This document shows positions 1,663-53,987 of a stretch of DNA of 64,000 nt, in pieces (the stretch's first letter is position 1; every line of letters starts with the position of its first letter). The notes beneath the pieces were generated by a model, which saw nothing but the letters and a program-made list of their open reading frames with translations, did no database searches and was not told where the DNA came from. A program made the translations under genes and the position numbers. Source of the stretch: Caldilineaceae bacterium (lineage in GTDB: Bacteria; Chloroflexota; Anaerolineae; Caldilineales; Caldilineaceae); assembly GCA_965207495.1 (NCBI GenBank), contig OZ242287.1, positions 2,780,880 through 2,844,879 on the forward strand. The letters are read 5' to 3'.

Positions 1663-1824
1663 TTTCTTGCCCCCTTGAATCCGAACTGTAGCATACGGTG
1701 GATACAGACACAAGCAGCAACGCTTCCATGGGCACACTCCCAGGTGGGGGTGACCCGCTGTATTCCTCTGGTATCGACTAGACCGCGTCCAGTCCCCACT
1801 TCAATCCCTGAAAGATCGCCCATT

Positions 1825-1990
1825 CACTGACCACTGACCACTAACCACTTACCCCTGCAGTTGTGCGTTCGGGCCTTCGGCCCTCCCTTGTGCGGGGGCT
1901 GCGCCCCCGCAACGCCCCGCCCTTGCTAGCGACCGTGTTCAATCTTCCCCAGCAAAGTGTCTAGCCAACAGTGTTCCCCCTTCCCGCCCT
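1825..1990 (+). repeat. modular intergenic repeat, copy A (heptamer array - CTGCAG - 58-nt GC-rich double hairpin - CTAG-hairpin module)
   Basis: 7-mers CACTGAC CACTGAC CACTAAC CACTTAC (1825-1852), then CCCTGCAG (1853-1860). The 58-nt block GCGTTCGGGCCTTCGGCCCTCCCTTGTGCGGGGGCTGCGCCCCCGCAACGCCCCGCCC (1865-1922) is identical to 48989-49046 and differs at 2 positions from 16832-16889. The following TTGCTAGCGACCGTG..CTTCCCCAGCA..GTCTAGCC resembles the 132-bp unit at 16918+. Confidence 0.85.
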
Positions 1991-2303
1991 GTCCTCCTAA
2001 TCAATCGATTCTCCGCCGGTAAGGCCAGGCCTAACCCCTGCCCTGCGTCTCTCCTCCAGCCGGCAAACAATCCCAGCCACAGCCGGCATTCTCTCCCGTC
2101 AGACCGATCCCACCCCAATCTAAGATGCGCACCGTGAATCGGCACTTGAGAAAATGCTCCATTACCTGCACAATGATAGGGTGGCGAGTGGGAACCAAAT
2201 TTGGTCAGATTCGCTGCGAAATCTACCTCAAAGCTCCTTCCAGACTTTCAGCATGGTAAAATGAGATAACTGCGCCGTCTACGTGGACAAGGGAAGTGAG
2301 ATC

Positions 2304-3926
2304 ATGACCATCAAACAACGCGCCTCCTTCTGGGCATTCGTTTCAATGGCTGCCCTGCTCCTCACCGCATGCGTTCCCTTACCCGCCGACCCCGGCATCC
2401 CGGTCAGTGGACCCGCGCCGGAAACACCGCTGATTTCGATTCACAACCCACTCGTGATCCCTATAGGGGACACTCCCTCGTCGTCAGGCGGACCGTTCCA
2501 GGATTGGCCGGCGTTCGAGGTCGAGCAGCACCGAATCAGAGTTTTCCATCCCAATCGGTGGCTCTTCTTGCCCACACAGGAAGAACTGGCTGCTCTCCGC
2601 CTGCAATTGGGCGCAGACGAAGCCGCCGCAGCCTTCTTCGAAGAGCGGGAAGGCTACGTCCAATCCCTGACACAGCCCGCCCAGGCCGAATACTTTGCCG
2701 GCGCCGGATTTCCTTACGACCCTGACTCACCGCCAATGGAAACCAACGGTTTCCACCTGCTCGCAGTACCCACCGAGGGCCGCACTCTCGAAACCTATGC
2801 CCGCAAGCTGAGCGACGAAATAGGGGCATCAGGATTGGCAGTGGTGGAAGGAATCGAGATCGGTCCTGGTCTGCGGCCGTGGGGTGAGGAAACAGCTTCG
2901 ATCCAATACAGAATTGACGGCACGCAGGCTTTCGGAAACCGGGTCGTCACAGTCCCCGACGCCGAGGTGGTCGGCTGGCGAGTGATACTGCTTTCTCCCG
3001 ATGGCGGGACCTTTCTCACAGTCACCTACGACGTATGGGGCGAGTACGCAGAGTGGGTTGAGGGTCTGCTGCGCGAGGTCGTTCGGCGAATCCAGTGGGT
3101 CGACGATCCTGCCTATCTGCCCCGCTCAGCGCCGTTGCTGACGCTCGATCACCTAATGAACGTCCGCGCGGGTCCAGGGACCGACTATCCAATCCTCGGC
3201 AAGGCCGGCGTGGGCGACCAGTTCCCCGCGATCAGCCAGCGCCCTTCCGGCGGGCCGGCCGGCGGCTGGTGGCAGATCGAGTACCGCGGTCAACTCGGTT
3301 GGCTGCACGGCGACTATGTCACCGCGACAACTGGCGCCGAAGACGCCCCGCAAGCAGACGAATCCGGCTGGCTGACATATGAGGACGAGACGAGGGGGCT
3401 GTCGCTTTCACTTCCGGCCGACTGGCGCTACTTTGACCCGGCGCGGCCCACAGAGGCCGACCTGGCCCTCCTGACCACCGCCAACAAGGTATCTGAAGAA
3501 CAGTTCGACGTTTTGGGCCTGGGTGAGATTGTATCGGACATGAGCCTCCGACGCGACGACGCCGTTATCGGTCTTGGTCTGCAGACGAGCCCGCAGGATA
3601 GTGATGCCAGCAACTTTATGCTTGTCTTCTCGTTCGCGGCTAATGGCCAAAACCTCGAAGGATACGCCCAGGCAGCCGCCGAGCAGACCTACAGCATCGA
3701 GCCAGCTGTTGTTGAACTGGTACAGGCCATGAGGCCGTCAGGCGAAGACGTGGTATCCATCCGATACGGTGAATACGCAACCAATAACGTGGTATGGCAG
3801 TTCTGGCTCCTCTCACCAGACGGCGAAAAACTCATCGCCCTTGGGTTCAACATTCACCGCGACCAAATTGAGGATCTGGAACCTGTGATTACCGAAGTCG
3901 TGAACCGGTTACACTGGATCGAATGA
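2304..3926 (+). CDS. secreted lipoprotein with central bacterial SH3 (SH3b) domain flanked by two related domains
   Basis: ORF 2283..3926. ATG at 2304 preferred (GGGAAGTGAG upstream). Signal peptide with lipobox-like LLTAC. SH3b motif LMNVRAGPGTDYPILGKAGVGDQF..WWQIEY.GQLGWLHGDYV. Both flanking halves end with related strings (..WRVILLSPDGGTFLTVTYDVWGEYAEWVEGLLREVVRRIQWV / ..WQFWLLSPDGEKLIALGFNIHRDQIEDLEPVITEVVNRLHWIE). Confidence 0.7.
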   Translation: MTIKQRASFWAFVSMAALLLTACVPLPADPGIPVSGPAPETPLISIHNPLVIPIGDTPSSSGGPFQDWPAFEVEQHRIRVFHPNRWLFLPTQEELAALRLQLGADEAAAAFFEEREGYVQSLTQPAQAEYFAGAGFPYDPDSPPMETNGFHLLAVPTEGRTLETYARKLSDEIGASGLAVVEGIEIGPGLRPWGEETASIQYRIDGTQAFGNRVVTVPDAEVVGWRVILLSPDGGTFLTVTYDVWGEYAEWVEGLLREVVRRIQWVDDPAYLPRSAPLLTLDHLMNVRAGPGTDYPILGKAGVGDQFPAISQRPSGGPAGGWWQIEYRGQLGWLHGDYVTATTGAEDAPQADESGWLTYEDETRGLSLSLPADWRYFDPARPTEADLALLTTANKVSEEQFDVLGLGEIVSDMSLRRDDAVIGLGLQTSPQDSDASNFMLVFSFAANGQNLEGYAQAAAEQTYSIEPAVVELVQAMRPSGEDVVSIRYGEYATNNVVWQFWLLSPDGEKLIALGFNIHRDQIEDLEPVITEVVNRLHWIE

Positions 3927-16536: not shown

Positions 16537-16758
16537 TCGTTACTTTTCCTTCTTGAGTACCTTCCCGGAATCCTTGCTTCATTAGCAAAGTCAGGAGGGC
16601 TGATGTTTCTTCCGTAGGTAAGAGAATCCTTCTGGAGTACTTCGCTCGCAAGCCAGGTTCGCCTACCCCTTGTCTTCGAGCCTATTTCTCCGTTAAGCTA
16701 AGGCATGAGTCATATTTGCCAATAATGAAAATGGTAACGACTCAGCCACAACCGATTT

Positions 16759-16917
16759 GCGAACCTGAATGAGGCGAGCGAAAGTGTGTACTCTTTCCTC
16801 ACTCCTCTTCCCTCTCTCCTCGCATTTTTGGGCGTCCGGGCCTTCGGCCCTCCCTTGTGCAGGGGCTGCGCCCCCGCAACGCCCCGCCCTTACTAGACCA
16901 CCGTGCGCATTCTTCCC
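16759..16917 (+). repeat. modular intergenic repeat, copy B 5' module
   Basis: GCGAACCTGAATGAGGCGAGCG..CCTCACTCCTCTTCCCTCTCTCCTCGC..58-nt GC-rich block (16832-16889)..TTACTAGACCACCGTG. Collinear with copy C at 48906-49046. Confidence 0.85.
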
Positions 16918-17450
16918 CAGCATTGCGTCTAGTCGACAGTGTCTCCACCCCCCGCTCCAGACTCAGCCCCCTGATCCCGGACCCCTGATCCCTGACCCCT
17001 GCAGTTCGCTGCGCCCCGCCCTAACTAGACCACCGTGCTGATTCTTCCCCAGCATTGCGTCTAGTCGACAGTGTCTCCACCCCCCGCTCCAGACTCAGCC
17101 CCCTGATCCCTGACCCCTGATCCCTGACCCCTGCAGTTCGCTGCGCCCCGCCCTAACTAGACCACCGTGCTGATTCTTCCCCAGCATTGCGTCTAGTCGA
17201 CAGTGTCTCCACCCCCCGCTCCAGACTCAGCCCCCTGATCCCTGACCCCTGATCCCTGACCCCTGCAGTTCGCTGCGCCCCGCCCTAACTAGACCACTGT
17301 GCTGATTCTTCCCCAGCATTGCCTCTAGTCGACAGTGTCTCCAACCCCACCTGCTGCCTCCAGCCACTGACCACCGACCACGGCAGTTCCGCGCCCTTGC
17401 TAGCCACCGTACTGGTTCTTCGCCACCATCGTGGTATGCCGACAGTGTGC
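16918..17450 (+). repeat. 132-bp tandem repeat array: three near-identical units (16918-17313) plus a degenerate fourth
   Basis: CAGCATTGCGTCTAGTCGACAGTGTCTCC recurs at 16918, 17050, 17182 and 17314 (period exactly 132). Units 1-3 differ from each other by single substitutions. The unit contains (CCCCTGA/TCCCTGA) 7-mers, CCCTGCAGTTCG, and an imperfect hairpin ACTAGACCACCGTGCTG-ATTCTTCCCC-CAGCATTGCGTCTAGT spanning the unit junction. Confidence 0.9.
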
Positions 17451-17576
17451 CCCAACCAACCTGGCGGCTGCCAACCGAATAAACCATCCGAAAGCCTGAC
17501 TATCGGCGAAGATAAAGAGGTAGTCAAGACAGACACTGCTAGCGGCTTAGGAGTTACCGAAAACGAAAAAAGCAGG

Positions 17577-48833: not shown

Positions 48834-48905
48834 TCCCCATCTCCTGGTCTCTGATAATCTCGTTTGTCAATTATGAAACGTAACTGCTAAGCCAAAACTT
48901 TTTTT

Positions 48906-49046
48906 GCAAACCTGAATGAGGCGAGCGCTGGTTTCCTCACTCCTCACTCCTCACTCCTCACTCCTCTTCACTCTCTCCTCGCCTTTGGGCGTTCGGGCCT
49001 TCGGCCCTCCCTTGTGCGGGGGCTGCGCCCCCGCAACGCCCCGCCC
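48906..49046 (+). repeat. modular intergenic repeat, copy C
   Basis: GCAAACCTGAATGAGGCGAGCG, four CCTCACT 7-mers (48935-48962), CTCTCTCCTCGCC, then the 58-nt GC-rich block (48989-49046). The block has hairpins GGGCC-TTCG-GCCC.. (48995-49007) and GCGGGGGC-TGC-GCCCCCGC (49016-49034). Lies between the Nudix gene and lysW. Confidence 0.85.
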
Positions 49047-49221
49047 AAAAAACCCGCCTCATCCACCTAACGCCGTAATTCCAGCGGTGCGTCTCGTCAA
49101 AAGTGGCGGCGGCCAACGGGTACACGATGAGTTAGCCCGAAAGGCTGCGTGACTGAAGGTCTGGTCCACACGGGCACTGTATATGGCTTAGTAGCGACAA
49201 TAAAACTTTGAAAATCAATGT

Positions 49222-53140: not shown

Positions 53141-53240
53141 ATTCGACAACCCTCTGCGTGCATCCCCAAAAGGAAGTGAACTCATTTGTAACTTAGGTAT
53201 CGACAAGCCTCTCCCCCGTCCTCACATCCATCCTCAATAA

Positions 53241-53305
53241 ATCGCCCAATCACTGACCCCTGACCCCTGACCCCTGACCCCTGACCCCTGACCCCTGCAG
53301 TTCGG
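53241..53305 (+). repeat. modular intergenic repeat, copy D (heptamer array only)
   Basis: ATCGCCCAATCACTGA + five perfect CCCCTGA units (53257-53291) + CCCCTGCAG TTCGG. The 5' flank ATCGCCCA(A/T)TCACTGAC is shared with copy A (1815-1831). Confidence 0.9.
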
Positions 53306-53987
53306 CTCTCCGGGAATTGGCAGCCAGTTGACCAGAACCGGGTGAATAAAACAGGACAAAGGCCGAGTCAATTCGCTATGCTATGTCAGTGGGCCGCAAA
53401 GGAGCCCCTAACCCAACCAATAATCAGGAAAAATGCCAGGGATTCAGCACCGTATTCCCGTTCCACGAGCGTTGAGGGTGGAAGACCTTCAGTTCCTGGC
53501 ATCGGAGAGTCCAAGACAAGTGCAGCAGTCAACATGAGTAGCGCGCCTACACAAGCAGTCGGCAAACGGAAAAGGGCGCTTCTGTTCCATGGAATGCCTG
53601 CTCAGTTATTCGCCATCGGCGAACCCTTACCCTACTTTCCCGGTTCCGTTCAATCTATAGACGCCTTCATAAACGCATGCATTATGCAGGTTGGACATTT
53701 TCTATACGGCACAGCTACGTAGGGTTGTCGCCTACCTTTGTAGAAGTGCGATTCGCTCCACTCGGATGGGTCCAGGTGAAGGCTGAGCTACAGACACTTT
53801 TCGCCTGATTTACTCTGGTAGTCCGACAGTTCTGTGAGGCCTGTAACCCGCGATTTCGCTCCATTTTCCGAGGTCCGCCGCAAATGCACAACTGCTTGAC
53901 ACCTCCAATGTGGATAACATAAATTTTCACTGAGGATCGTGCGACATTTTGCGATAACACGTTAGGTAAAGGTGAGTCTTGGACCGA

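What the first reader, a model, noticed from the sequence alone, without database searches (positions are those of the whole stretch)
48906..49062. Genome-specific modular intergenic repeat family with a 58-nt GC-rich double-hairpin core
Seen: the 58-nt block GCGTTCGGGCCTTCGGCCCTCCCTTGTGCGGGGGCTGCGCCCCCGCAACGCCCCGCCC occurs at 1865-1922 and 48989-49046 (identical), and at 16832-16889 (2 substitutions). All three copies are in the same orientation. The block contains a GGGCC-UUCG-GCCC-type hairpin and a perfect 8-bp hairpin GCGGGGGC-UGC-GCCCCCGC. Copies B and C also share a 5' module (GC(G/A)AACCTGAATGAGGCGAGCG - CCTCACT 7-mers - CTCTCTCCTCGC). Copies A and D share ATCGCCCA(A/T)TCACTGAC - 7-mers - CCCTGCAGTT. 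All copies lie in intergenic gaps of, or next to, minus-strand biosynthetic operons: PhyH/lipoprotein, methyltransferase/leuB, Nudix/lysW, and upstream of the lysine promoter. Established: REP/BIME-type palindromic units inside operons can act as mRNA stabilisers, processing sites or protein-binding sites. Inference: this is an analogous but apparently distinct element. It could alternatively be a small structured RNA gene or a non-autonomous mobile element. I do not recognise the sequence.
Basis: partly seen in the sequence, partly recalled or inferred. Interest (0 to 1): 0.6.

Follow-up and report, generated by a model that had tools for sequence, protein, structure and literature searches.

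The report
Replication-oriented mini-transposons with invariant folded core
The 58-base block is the almost unchanging, hairpin-forming heart of about 240 small non-coding jumping elements (MITEs) in a sponge-associated Caldilineaceae bacterium; they are ordinary in how they move, but nearly all point the same way relative to DNA replication and are spaced more evenly than chance.

Summary
The core occurs 247 times in this 5.97-Mb genome. It also occurs in 25 of 35 species of one Caldilineaceae genus (0 to about 440 copies) and in none of 115 genomes from 25 sister genera.

It is the internal cargo of true MITEs. Type I has GTAAC… terminal inverted repeats and 8-bp target duplications, identical to those of a 7-copy IS66-family IS in the same genome. 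Type II has a different 26-bp repeat, also with 8-bp duplications. All four window loci are empty in the collinear relative G001.

Three features are unusual:
- Orientation follows local GC skew in 236 of 245 copies, although genes and the IS66 copies show no strand bias.
- Spacing is over-dispersed (CV 0.745 against about 0.97).
- The core stays 100% identical at an orthologous locus where the element arms are only 87-88% identical. Compensatory changes and G·T wobbles show that the G-rich complement strand folds.

The most likely reading is a strand-specific folded DNA or RNA module whose orientation is constrained by replication. Its function is unproven, and no RNA data were available. Earlier agents of this scan reached the same reading on other genomes (e1-3975873, e1-3023845, e1-3823222).

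The parts
48880..49198 (+). Copy C, the element that contains the finding. It is a type I MITE between the Nudix stop and the lysW start. Its order is: left inverted repeat, L1 arm, (CCTCACT)n tract, core, R1 arm, right inverted repeat.
   Evidence: Inverted repeats GTAACTGCTAAGCC (48880-48893) and GGCTTAGTAGCGAC (49185-49198). Degenerate 8-bp duplication TATGAAAC/AATAAAAC, 6 of 8. The site is empty in G001 (23 bp in place of 349 bp) and in at least 12 other species.
48989..49046 (-). The 58-nt core of copy C. The folding strand is the complement (G-rich) strand. P1 is GGGCGTT/AACGCCC, P2 is GCGGGGGC-GCA-GCCCCCGC, and P3 is GGGCC-GAA-GGCCC.
48935..48985 (+). Heptamer tract: (CCTCACT)x4 followed by CCTCTTCACTCTCTCCTCGCC. 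Its length varies between copies and between orthologues.
   Evidence: Orthologous copies carry 3 versus 10 units.
16734..17557 (+). Copy B. A type I MITE between leuB and a methyltransferase gene, enlarged from the inside by tandem units.
   Evidence: Inverted repeats GTAACGACTCAGCC and GGCTTAGGAGTTAC. Duplication TGAAAATG/CGAAAACG, 6 of 8. G001 has 16 bp at this site instead of 848 bp.
16832..16889 (-). Core of copy B. This is the majority A variant, which gives a G.T wobble on the folding strand.
16890..17450 (+). Four head-to-tail units of about 132 nt. Each holds the D module, a spacer, CCCCTGA-type heptamers, CTGCAGTTCG and a short core remnant.
   Evidence: Direct-repeat family D3, period 132 nt, 91-100% identical. 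The same kind of array, carrying the 22-nt 3' part of the core, follows many cores genome-wide (69 partial hits).
1730..2133 (+). Copy A. A type II MITE in the divergent gap between a PhyH-like gene and a lipoprotein gene.
   Evidence: Ends GGGCACACTCCCAGGTGGGGGTGACC and GATCCCACCCCAATCTAAGATGCGCACC match the type II inverted-repeat consensus. G001 has unrelated sequence at this site.
1865..1922 (-). Core of copy A (G variant).
53157..53306 (+). Copy D. A truncated left half of a type II element: inverted repeat, L2 arm, (CCCCTGA)n and CTGCAGTTCGG, with no core.
   Evidence: Absent from G001.

Best explanation
**What it is (shown).** The 58-nt block is the shared internal cargo of a genus-wide family of non-autonomous DDE-type transposons (MITEs).
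- Type I elements carry the terminal inverted repeats of an IS66-family insertion sequence. That IS is present in 7 copies in the same genome and is the presumed mobiliser.
- Type II elements carry a different 26-bp inverted repeat. No autonomous partner was found for it.
- Both types make 8-bp target duplications. Both contain the same cargo: a variable heptamer tract, the core, and a D/R1 arm.
- After insertion the elements evolve in place, by heptamer slippage, by gain and loss of 130-190-nt tandem units whose boundary lies at the 22-nt 3' part of the core, and by patchwise replacement from other copies.

**How it most likely works (inferred).** The core acts as a folded single strand. Its G-rich strand forms two hairpins closed by a short stem.
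- The fold is kept by compensatory changes, and the sequence is kept nearly invariant.
- Because the fold is strand-specific, only one orientation relative to the replication fork is established or tolerated. Under the more likely origin assignment (3.22 Mb), that orientation puts the folding strand on the lagging-strand template.
- Since two families with different inverted repeats share the polarity and the IS66 copies themselves do not, the polarity is set by the cargo and not by the transposase. It could arise by cargo-guided insertion at forks or by rapid loss of wrongly oriented copies.

My confidence in the descriptive part is about 0.9. My confidence in the fork-linked single-strand mechanism is about 0.35-0.4.
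For: **Copy number and distribution.**
- The genome has 247 cores plus 69 short forms.
- The core is present in 25 of 35 species of one genus and in 0 of 115 genomes from 25 other genera. Copy numbers run from 0 to 438.

**MITE anatomy.**
- The 1566-bp IS has the same GTAACTACTAAGCC…TAGTTAC ends and perfect 8-bp duplications. Its transposase matches DDE_Tnp_IS66 at 6.8e-41 plus zf-IS66.
- Type I copies have duplications with 0-2 mismatches.
- In type II, 7 of 24 end pairs have an 8-9-bp duplication with 1 mismatch or fewer at offset 0.
- All four window loci are empty in the collinear relative G001. The lysW-Nudix site is empty in at least 12 other species.

**Polarity.**
- 236 of 245 copies agree with local GC skew, p = 3e-58.
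- Every module is polar, and both inverted-repeat types are polar.
- Polarity is reproduced in G012, where 16 of 17 regions agree with skew.
- Genes are about 50/50 on the two strands. The IS66 copies split 4:3.

**Spacing.** CV is 0.745 against 0.96-1.0 under the null models (0 of 5000 and 0 of 3000 simulations as low). There are 13 gaps under 5 kb against 39-45 expected.

**Constraint on the core.**
- Core columns 5-57 are at least 97% identical across copies, apart from the polymorphic positions 21 and 29, while the arms vary.
- At an orthologous insertion in four species the arms are 88.1% and 86.8% identical and the core is 58/58 in all six pairs.

**Fold and folding strand.**
- Compensatory changes: CG to GC at the closing pair of P2 (332 against 34 copies) and GC to CG in P3 (349 against 15). 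Loops vary freely.
- 299 A.C and 77 C.A cells on the written strand become G.T wobbles on the complement. Only two single cells go the other way.
- On 26 distinct variants, 92.3% of cells are paired, and 0 of 500 shuffles reach this. P2 is 98% paired and P3 99%.
- RNAalifold gives -20.2 for the complement and -8.1 for the written strand. As DNA the values are -19.9 and -16.4 kcal/mol.
Against: - No trans-acting factor was found: no Y1/HUH transposase and no RAYT-like gene between the only close inverted pair of cores.
RNA and ssDNA therefore cannot be told apart.
- The assignment of leading and lagging strand is not settled. The dnaA gene (34 kb) and three parS-like sites (602-642 kb) lie near the other skew switch.
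- Ectopic conversion demonstrably occurs. Hairpin 1 and an arm block are swapped at an orthologous locus. So part of the core's uniformity could be concerted evolution rather than selection at each copy.
- Z-scores of the single-sequence folds are modest, -0.9 to -2.65.
- Helix P1 is only 82% paired.
- Gene calls come from a crude home-made ORF scorer.
- The IS66 comparison rests on 7 copies.
Confidence: 0.55

Rival explanations
1. The cargo is a small structured RNA gene or cis-RNA module. It would be transcribed from the G-rich strand, that is the reverse complement of the written sequence. The MITEs would spread it, and polarity would arise because a GC-rich, R-loop-prone transcription unit is tolerated only when co-directional with replication.
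For: - The fold is conserved by compensatory changes and G.U wobbles on one strand only.
- In 171 of 243 loci the next gene downstream, read in the G-rich sense, is co-oriented, p = 2e-10.
- The variable triplets of the D module fall between conserved blocks, as expected for a promoter spacer. This is my reading only.
- One sigma-70-like site in an R1 arm points toward the core.
Against: - No Rfam family matches. The best hits reach 18-19 bits against gathering scores of 39-45.
- No consensus promoter was found in the D modules, and no intrinsic terminator follows the core.
- Protein genes show no co-orientation pressure, and the two rRNA operons and the tRNA genes show at most a weak one. A near-absolute bias for this RNA alone would be odd.
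- 47 tandem loci are antisense to both neighbours.
- No expression data were available.
Confidence: 0.2
2. The core has been taken over by the host as a polar chromosomal signal. It would be a structured counterpart of KOPS or Chi-type skewed motifs, or a boundary or loading site, read by the segregation, repair or replication-restart machinery. The MITEs would be only the delivery vehicle.
For: - 96% of copies are polar with respect to GC skew, and the direction switches at the two skew turning points.
- Spacing is more even than random under three null models.
- The core is invariant at an orthologous site while the arms drift.
- Element positions are retained among three species whose flanks are 84-97% identical.
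- The two large extra contigs are depleted: 2 cores against 9.8 expected.
Against: - Copy number runs from 0 to about 440 among species of one genus, and 10 of 35 species have no copy with 3 mismatches or fewer. A core chromosomal function should not be dispensable.
- Insertion sites are not shared between G000 and G001.
- The deficit of short gaps can also come from deletion between close direct repeats.
- Each species carries its own variant, as expected for bursts from a master copy.
- No binding protein is known.
Confidence: 0.13
3. It is a purely selfish MITE family with no special function. The core looks invariant because of recent bursts and gene conversion. Polarity would be an insertion bias of the kind reported for many IS families, for example through transposase contacts with the beta sliding clamp.
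For: - Orientation bias of IS families relative to replication is documented, including a weak bias for IS66a (PMC3971601; PMC5371812).
- Patchwise replacement between copies is seen directly.
- The core has species-specific variants.
- Copy number is highly variable.
Against: - The IS66 copies in this genome are not polar, 4:3.
- Two unrelated inverted-repeat classes, and fragments with no inverted repeats, share the same polarity.
- Copies whose target duplications have decayed by 2-4 mismatches in 8 bp still have intact cores.
- Across species that are about 80% identical, the core consensus differs by only 1-3 bases and changes in compensating pairs. Concerted evolution alone does not slow divergence between species.
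Confidence: 0.1
4. It is a REP/BIME-type element mobilised by a RAYT (Y1) transposase, acting as an mRNA stabiliser or protein-binding palindrome inside operons.
For: - GC-rich hairpins, mosaic modular organisation, intergenic location and high copy number.
- Replication-linked polarity is what single-strand (Y1) transposition produces (PMC5027513; PMC5371812).
Against: - The 97.7%-complete genome has no PF01797 match, while the control genomes do.
- The elements have terminal inverted repeats and 8-bp target duplications and share their ends with an IS66 element.
- Internal units are direct repeats, not alternating.
- Orientation is independent of the flanking genes.
Confidence: 0.02

Closest known systems
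Bacterial MITEs that carry functional or structured internal modules (Correia/NEMIS of Neisseria, ERIC/IRU, RUP, MITEAba12). The comparison rests on my own knowledge and on titles.
   Same: They are small and non-coding, with terminal inverted repeats and target-site duplications. A transposase supplied in trans mobilises them. They are intergenic, multi-copy and polymorphic between relatives, and they contain internal hairpins.
   Different: Here two families with different inverted repeats share one cargo. The cargo is far better conserved than the inverted repeats. Orientation is about 96% locked to replication direction, and spacing is over-dispersed. The elements also grow internal tandem arrays.
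IS66 family insertion sequences, single-ORF type (ISfinder family description recalled from memory; Pfam PF03050).
   Same: Type I elements have the same GTAAC… 14-bp ends and 8-bp duplications as the 1566-bp IS66-family element of this genome.
   Different: Only the terminal 14 bp are shared. The roughly 300 bp inside are unrelated to the IS. The IS copies show no replication polarity.
IS200/IS605 elements and their derivatives, and REP/REPIN with RAYT (Ton-Hoang 2010, cited in PMC5371812; PMC5027513; PMC2817692).
   Same: A strand-specific hairpin fold matters. Orientation mirrors replication direction, and the folding strand lies on the presumed lagging-strand template.
   Different: The genome has no Y1 transposase. 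The elements have inverted repeats and target duplications. The hairpins are internal, not subterminal.
Skewed chromosomal motifs (KOPS/FtsK-orienting sequences, Chi). This comparison is from my own knowledge.
   Same: They are genome-wide, their direction switches at the origin and terminus, and they are G-rich on the G-rich strand.
   Different: Those are 5-8-bp words that lie mostly inside genes and are universal within a species group. This is a 58-nt folded module delivered by transposons, and it is dispensable in sister species.
Heptameric G-rich tandem repeats of cyanobacteria and Xanthomonas (STRR; GGGNATC repeats, PMC4692102).
   Same: They are intergenic heptamer arrays of variable unit number. 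94 of 247 elements here carry a canonical G-quadruplex motif on the G-rich strand.
   Different: In Xanthomonas the repeats show no preference for the leading or lagging strand. Here the arrays are parts of MITEs and are polar.

Membership tests
Bacterial MITE (non-autonomous DDE transposon) | Terminal inverted repeats | tested here: met
   Type I has the 14-bp ends GTAACTACT(C/A)AGCC. Type II has the roughly 26-bp ends GGGTGCATCCCAAAATGGGGGTGAAC.
Bacterial MITE (non-autonomous DDE transposon) | Target-site duplication of fixed length | tested here: met
   The duplication is 8 bp. Type I copies show 0-2 mismatches. In type II, 7 of 24 end pairs have 1 mismatch or fewer at offset 0. The chance expectation is about 4e-4 per pair.
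Bacterial MITE (non-autonomous DDE transposon) | Small size and no coding capacity | tested here: met
   Median length is 389 bp, range 130-1288 bp. The only ORFs are spurious low-complexity ones.
Bacterial MITE (non-autonomous DDE transposon) | An autonomous element with the same ends in the same genome or clade | tested here: met
   For type I this is a 1566-bp IS66-family IS in 7 copies. No partner was found for type II: only 3 inverted-repeat hits lie away from a core.
Bacterial MITE (non-autonomous DDE transposon) | Insertion polymorphism, with empty sites in relatives | tested here: met
   All four window loci are empty in G001. The lysW-Nudix site is empty in at least 12 other species.
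REP/BIME (RAYT-mobilised) | A Y1 (RAYT) transposase gene in the genome | tested here: not met
   PF01797 gives no match in the 97.7%-complete genome, while 6 control genomes give matches.
REP/BIME (RAYT-mobilised) | No inverted repeats or target duplications, and REP units in alternating orientation | tested here: not met
   Inverted repeats and 8-bp duplications are present. Internal units are head-to-tail.
IS200/IS605-type single-strand elements | Orientation correlated with replication direction | tested here: met
   236 of 245 copies agree with local skew. In G012, 16 of 17 regions agree.
IS200/IS605-type single-strand elements | Subterminal hairpins, no target duplication, and a TnpA(Y1) transposase | tested here: not met
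Known structured RNA family (Rfam 15) | A match at or above the gathering score | tested here: not met
   The whole window gives no match. An E-value scan of copy C gives only 18-19-bit chance hits.
Skewed architectural motifs (KOPS/Chi-like) | Strand skew that switches at the origin and terminus | tested here: met
Skewed architectural motifs (KOPS/Chi-like) | Recognition by FtsK, RecBCD or AddAB, and conservation across the clade | tested here: not met
   Conservation fails: 10 of 35 congeneric species have no copy, and no other genus has any. Protein recognition cannot be tested with these tools.

The most novel reading that the evidence does not exclude
The core may be a cis-acting signal read as a folded single strand at the replication fork. 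In that case transposons have seeded a polar, evenly spaced set of roughly 58-nt structured sites, about one per 24 kb. The cell or the element would use them for fork-coupled events such as priming or restart, strand-specific recombination, or chromosome organisation. This would be a structured, transposon-delivered counterpart of KOPS or Chi.
Probability: 0.15. Interest if true: 0.85.

Novelty: new variant of a known kind. Interest (0 to 1): 0.6.

Why it matters
MITEs are usually treated as decaying junk whose only constrained parts are their ends. Here the reverse holds. The ends decay, while a folded internal module stays invariant across copies and across species, and it dictates a near-absolute orientation relative to replication in two families with unrelated ends.

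If the cause is selection on a strand-specific fold, this is a natural system for studying how replication asymmetry filters mobile DNA. If the host reads the cores, it would be a new class of polar chromosomal signal.

In practice, the elements mark replication direction, inversions and strain-level variation in complete genomes of abundant sponge symbionts.

Tried and rejected
- **Y1/RAYT transposase (PF01797):** absent from the genome.
- **Rfam:** nothing at the gathering threshold for the window. Only chance hits by E-value on copy C.
- **Promoter and terminator scans over copies A and B:** no consistent sigma-70 promoter in the D module and no terminator after the core.
- **A RAYT-like arrangement, meaning a gene flanked by inverted cores:** the only close inverted pair (C1 974.6 and 979.1 kb) flanks a 1249-aa secreted repeat protein.
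- **Reverse transcriptases as a possible homing source:** the genome has one group II intron-type RT and one 1253-aa RT fusion. Neither is linked to the elements.
- **Plasmid and phage collections:** no match.
- **Locating the origin:** DnaA-box clusters were not informative (at most 3 boxes per 600 bp). No convincing dif site was found. The genes at the skew minimum are pur and ABC-transporter genes.
- **Literature:** I found no description of this family in the held library.
- **Technical failures:** one fuzzy-regex scan and one whole-genome blast timed out and were replaced.

Full report
**1. Observation.**
- The 58-mer occurs at window 1865, 16832 (2 substitutions) and 48989, all on the + strand. 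No match appeared in shuffles.
- Two details need correcting. Hairpin 1 is GGGCC-TTC-GGCCC. The 'perfect' hairpin 2 is the minority form: 196 of 226 aligned copies in this genome have A at that position, which mismatches on the written strand.

**2. Scale and distribution.**
- The window is C1:2780880-2844879 of a 5.97-Mb, 6-contig assembly with 59% GC.
- The core has 247 hits of at least 36 nt. A further 69 hits cover only its 3' 22 nt, and these lie in 124-170-nt tandem arrays behind a full core.
- Composite elements have a median length of 389 bp and add up to about 98 kb, or 1.7% of the genome.
- An exact 23-mer of the core occurs in many Caldilineaceae MAGs, including bins from sponges and several complete chromosomes.
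- In a sample of the order, 25 of 35 species of one genus have the core, with 0 to 438 copies. None of 115 genomes from 25 other genera has it.
- The family is therefore genus-wide and patchy, not genome-specific.

**3. The elements are MITEs.**
- Type I elements begin GTAACTACT(C/A)AGCC, end with its inverse, and are flanked by 8-bp duplications.
- A 1566-bp IS in 7 copies has exactly these ends and perfect 8-bp duplications. Its 495-aa product is an IS66-family transposase: DDE_Tnp_IS66 at 6.8e-41, plus zf-IS66. Only the 14-bp ends are shared between the IS and the MITE.
- Type II elements have a different roughly 26-bp inverted repeat. In 7 of 24 end pairs the 8-9-bp duplication has 1 mismatch or fewer at the exact boundary.
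- Nearly every inverted-repeat hit has a core within 1 kb, so there is no population of these MITEs without a core.
- The relative G001 is collinear with the window at about 80% identity and lacks the element at all four window loci. The lysW-Nudix site is also empty in at least 12 other species.
- 243 of 245 chromosomal copies are intergenic. 42% lie between divergent genes, against 12% of all intergenic gaps.

**4. Polarity.**
- Copies are on the minus strand from 0 to 0.39 Mb, on the plus strand from 0.40 to 3.18 Mb, and on the minus strand from 3.27 to 5.71 Mb. The exceptions form blocks.
- The cumulative GC skew turns at 0.33 and 3.227 Mb, and the skew is strong, 0.1-0.17 in absolute value.
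- Orientation agrees with the local skew (±15 kb, element masked) in 236 of 245 copies, p = 3e-58. The 9 disagreements lie mostly where the skew is near zero.
- The block at 4.49-4.61 Mb has both inverted skew and inverted elements, which looks like an inversion.
- My crude gene calls show no gene-strand bias: 924 against 915 genes in one replichore and 1005 against 987 in the other.
- All modules are polar, and both inverted-repeat types are polar. The 7 IS66 copies are not: 4 against 3.
- In G012 the copies are also polar in blocks, 47 forward and 104 reverse. In 16 of 17 fetched 20-kb regions the same strand rule holds.

**5. Spacing.** The 238 chromosomal loci have a gap CV of 0.745.
- Random placement gives 0.995±0.064, and 0 of 5000 simulations are as low.
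- Two nulls restricted to intergenic gaps give 0.978 and 0.957, and 0 of 3000 are as low.
- Gaps under 5 kb number 13, against 39-45 expected.
- Deletion between close direct repeats could produce this deficit without any function.

**6. Constraint on the core.**
- Across 226 copies, core columns 5-57 are at least 97% identical apart from the polymorphic positions 21 and 29. Positions 3 and 4, just upstream, are also polymorphic.
- In 37 aligned type II elements the core is 99-100% identical, the inverted repeat about 90%, and the arm interior 50-90%.
- The lysW-Nudix insertion of G012, G058, G061 and G051 is orthologous, with the same junctions. Its arms are 88.1% and 86.8% identical, yet the core is 58/58 in all six pairs.
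- At three further orthologous loci the elements are retained between G012, G058 and G061, whose flanks are 84-97% identical. They also show mosaic change. Hairpin 1 is swapped wholesale, an arm block is replaced, and the long core alternates with the 22-nt short form.
- So conversion between copies is real and contributes to uniformity. Even so, across species about 80% identical the core consensus differs by only one to three bases.

**7. Fold and folding strand.** The core can form P1 (GGGCGTT/AACGCCC), P2 (hairpin 2) and P3 (hairpin 1).
- Among 373 copies from many species, the closing pair of P2 is CG in 332 and GC in 34. One pair of P3 is GC in 349 and CG in 15. Loops vary: GCA, GGA, AGT, AAT, TGT and GAA against CTTG.
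- 299 A.C cells and 77 C.A cells on the written strand are G.T wobbles on the complement. Only two single cells go the other way.
- RNAalifold gives -20.2 for the complement and -8.1 for the written strand. As DNA the values are -19.9 and -16.4 kcal/mol.
- On 26 distinct variants, 92.3% of cells pair, and 0 of 500 shuffles reach this. Slid controls give 35-64%. P2 is 98% paired, P3 99% and P1 82%.

**8. Which strand is that at the fork?** The evidence is split.
- For an origin at 3.22 Mb: the standard skew rule, the parB gene at 3.316 Mb, the S10 operon at 4.877 Mb (+), rpoC at 5.707 Mb (+), and the tRNA genes, 34 co-directional against 21. Under this assignment the folding strand is the lagging-strand template.
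- For an origin near 0.4 Mb: the dnaA gene at 34 kb and three parS-like sites at 602-642 kb.
- The two rRNA operons disagree with each other under either model.
- I put about 70% on 3.22 Mb.

**9. Interpretation.**
- The mode of movement is ordinary DDE MITE transposition.
- The unusual part is the cargo. It is a strand-specific fold, better conserved than the transposon ends, and it imposes replication polarity whichever transposase moves it.
- Orientation bias of IS elements relative to replication is known. It is strong for IS200/IS605 and Tn7-TnsE and weak for IS66a (PMC3971601; PMC5371812).
- Here the matching IS itself is unbiased, so I attribute the bias to the cargo.
- I could not decide between ssDNA and RNA, or between a selfish role and a host role.

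**10. Earlier work in this scan.** Other agents reached the same reading on other Caldilineaceae genomes. I saw their notes only after my own analysis was in place, and I re-derived each point here.

Noticed in passing
G000 C1 (whole chromosome); window = C1:2780880-2844879: The markers for the replication origin conflict. The GC-skew minimum (3.227 Mb), the parB gene (3.316 Mb), the S10 operon and rpoC point to one switch. The dnaA gene (34 kb) and three good parS-like sites (602568, 630128, 642116) lie near the other switch (0.33-0.6 Mb). Either dnaA and parS are far from the origin, or the skew is inverted in this genus.
   Followed up: partly
G000 C1, genome-wide: The GC skew is very strong (0.1-0.17 in absolute value), yet protein genes show essentially no strand bias by crude ORF-based calls. 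This combination is uncommon. G-quadruplex motifs are 88% on the G-rich strand.
   Followed up: partly
G000 C1:~4.45-4.63 Mb: This block has inverted GC skew, and eight elements in a row point the 'wrong' way. It is probably a recent inversion of about 150 kb, or an assembly error.
   Followed up: no
G000 C1:38857-40422 and six other sites: The 1566-bp IS66-family IS and the type I MITEs often insert into AT-rich heptamer tracts (CTAAAAA/CTGAAAA; duplications CTAAAAAC, CTGAAAAC, CTAGAAAC). These tracts are themselves parts of the composite repeats, so the elements nest in one another.
   Followed up: partly
G000 C1:306543-310304 and C1:815902-817719: Two reverse-transcriptase genes. One is a 605-aa group II intron-type RT with a C-terminal HNH-like tail. 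The other is a 1253-aa RT fusion protein of unknown type, possibly defence-related. I saw no link to the repeats.
   Followed up: no
G000 contigs C5 (110.7 kb) and C6 (119.5 kb): The two large extra contigs carry 0 and 2 cores, against 4.7 and 5.1 expected from the chromosomal density. C6 shares several near-identical genes with C1:4.68-4.69 Mb. They may be plasmids, duplicated segments or mis-binned DNA.
   Followed up: no
L145 (G000 C1:974913-978662) and window 2283-3926: These are paralogous large secreted proteins (1249 aa and 547 aa) built from the same roughly 250-aa repeat with SH3-like 'GPGTDYPV.G' modules. Both lie next to repeat elements.
   Followed up: no
L119, L121 (G061, G051: lysW-Nudix gap): At one orthologous insertion the heptamer tract has 3 units in G061 and 10 in G051, and a roughly 185-nt internal unit is present in two of the four species. 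The tracts therefore behave as hypervariable microsatellites and could serve as strain markers.
   Followed up: partly
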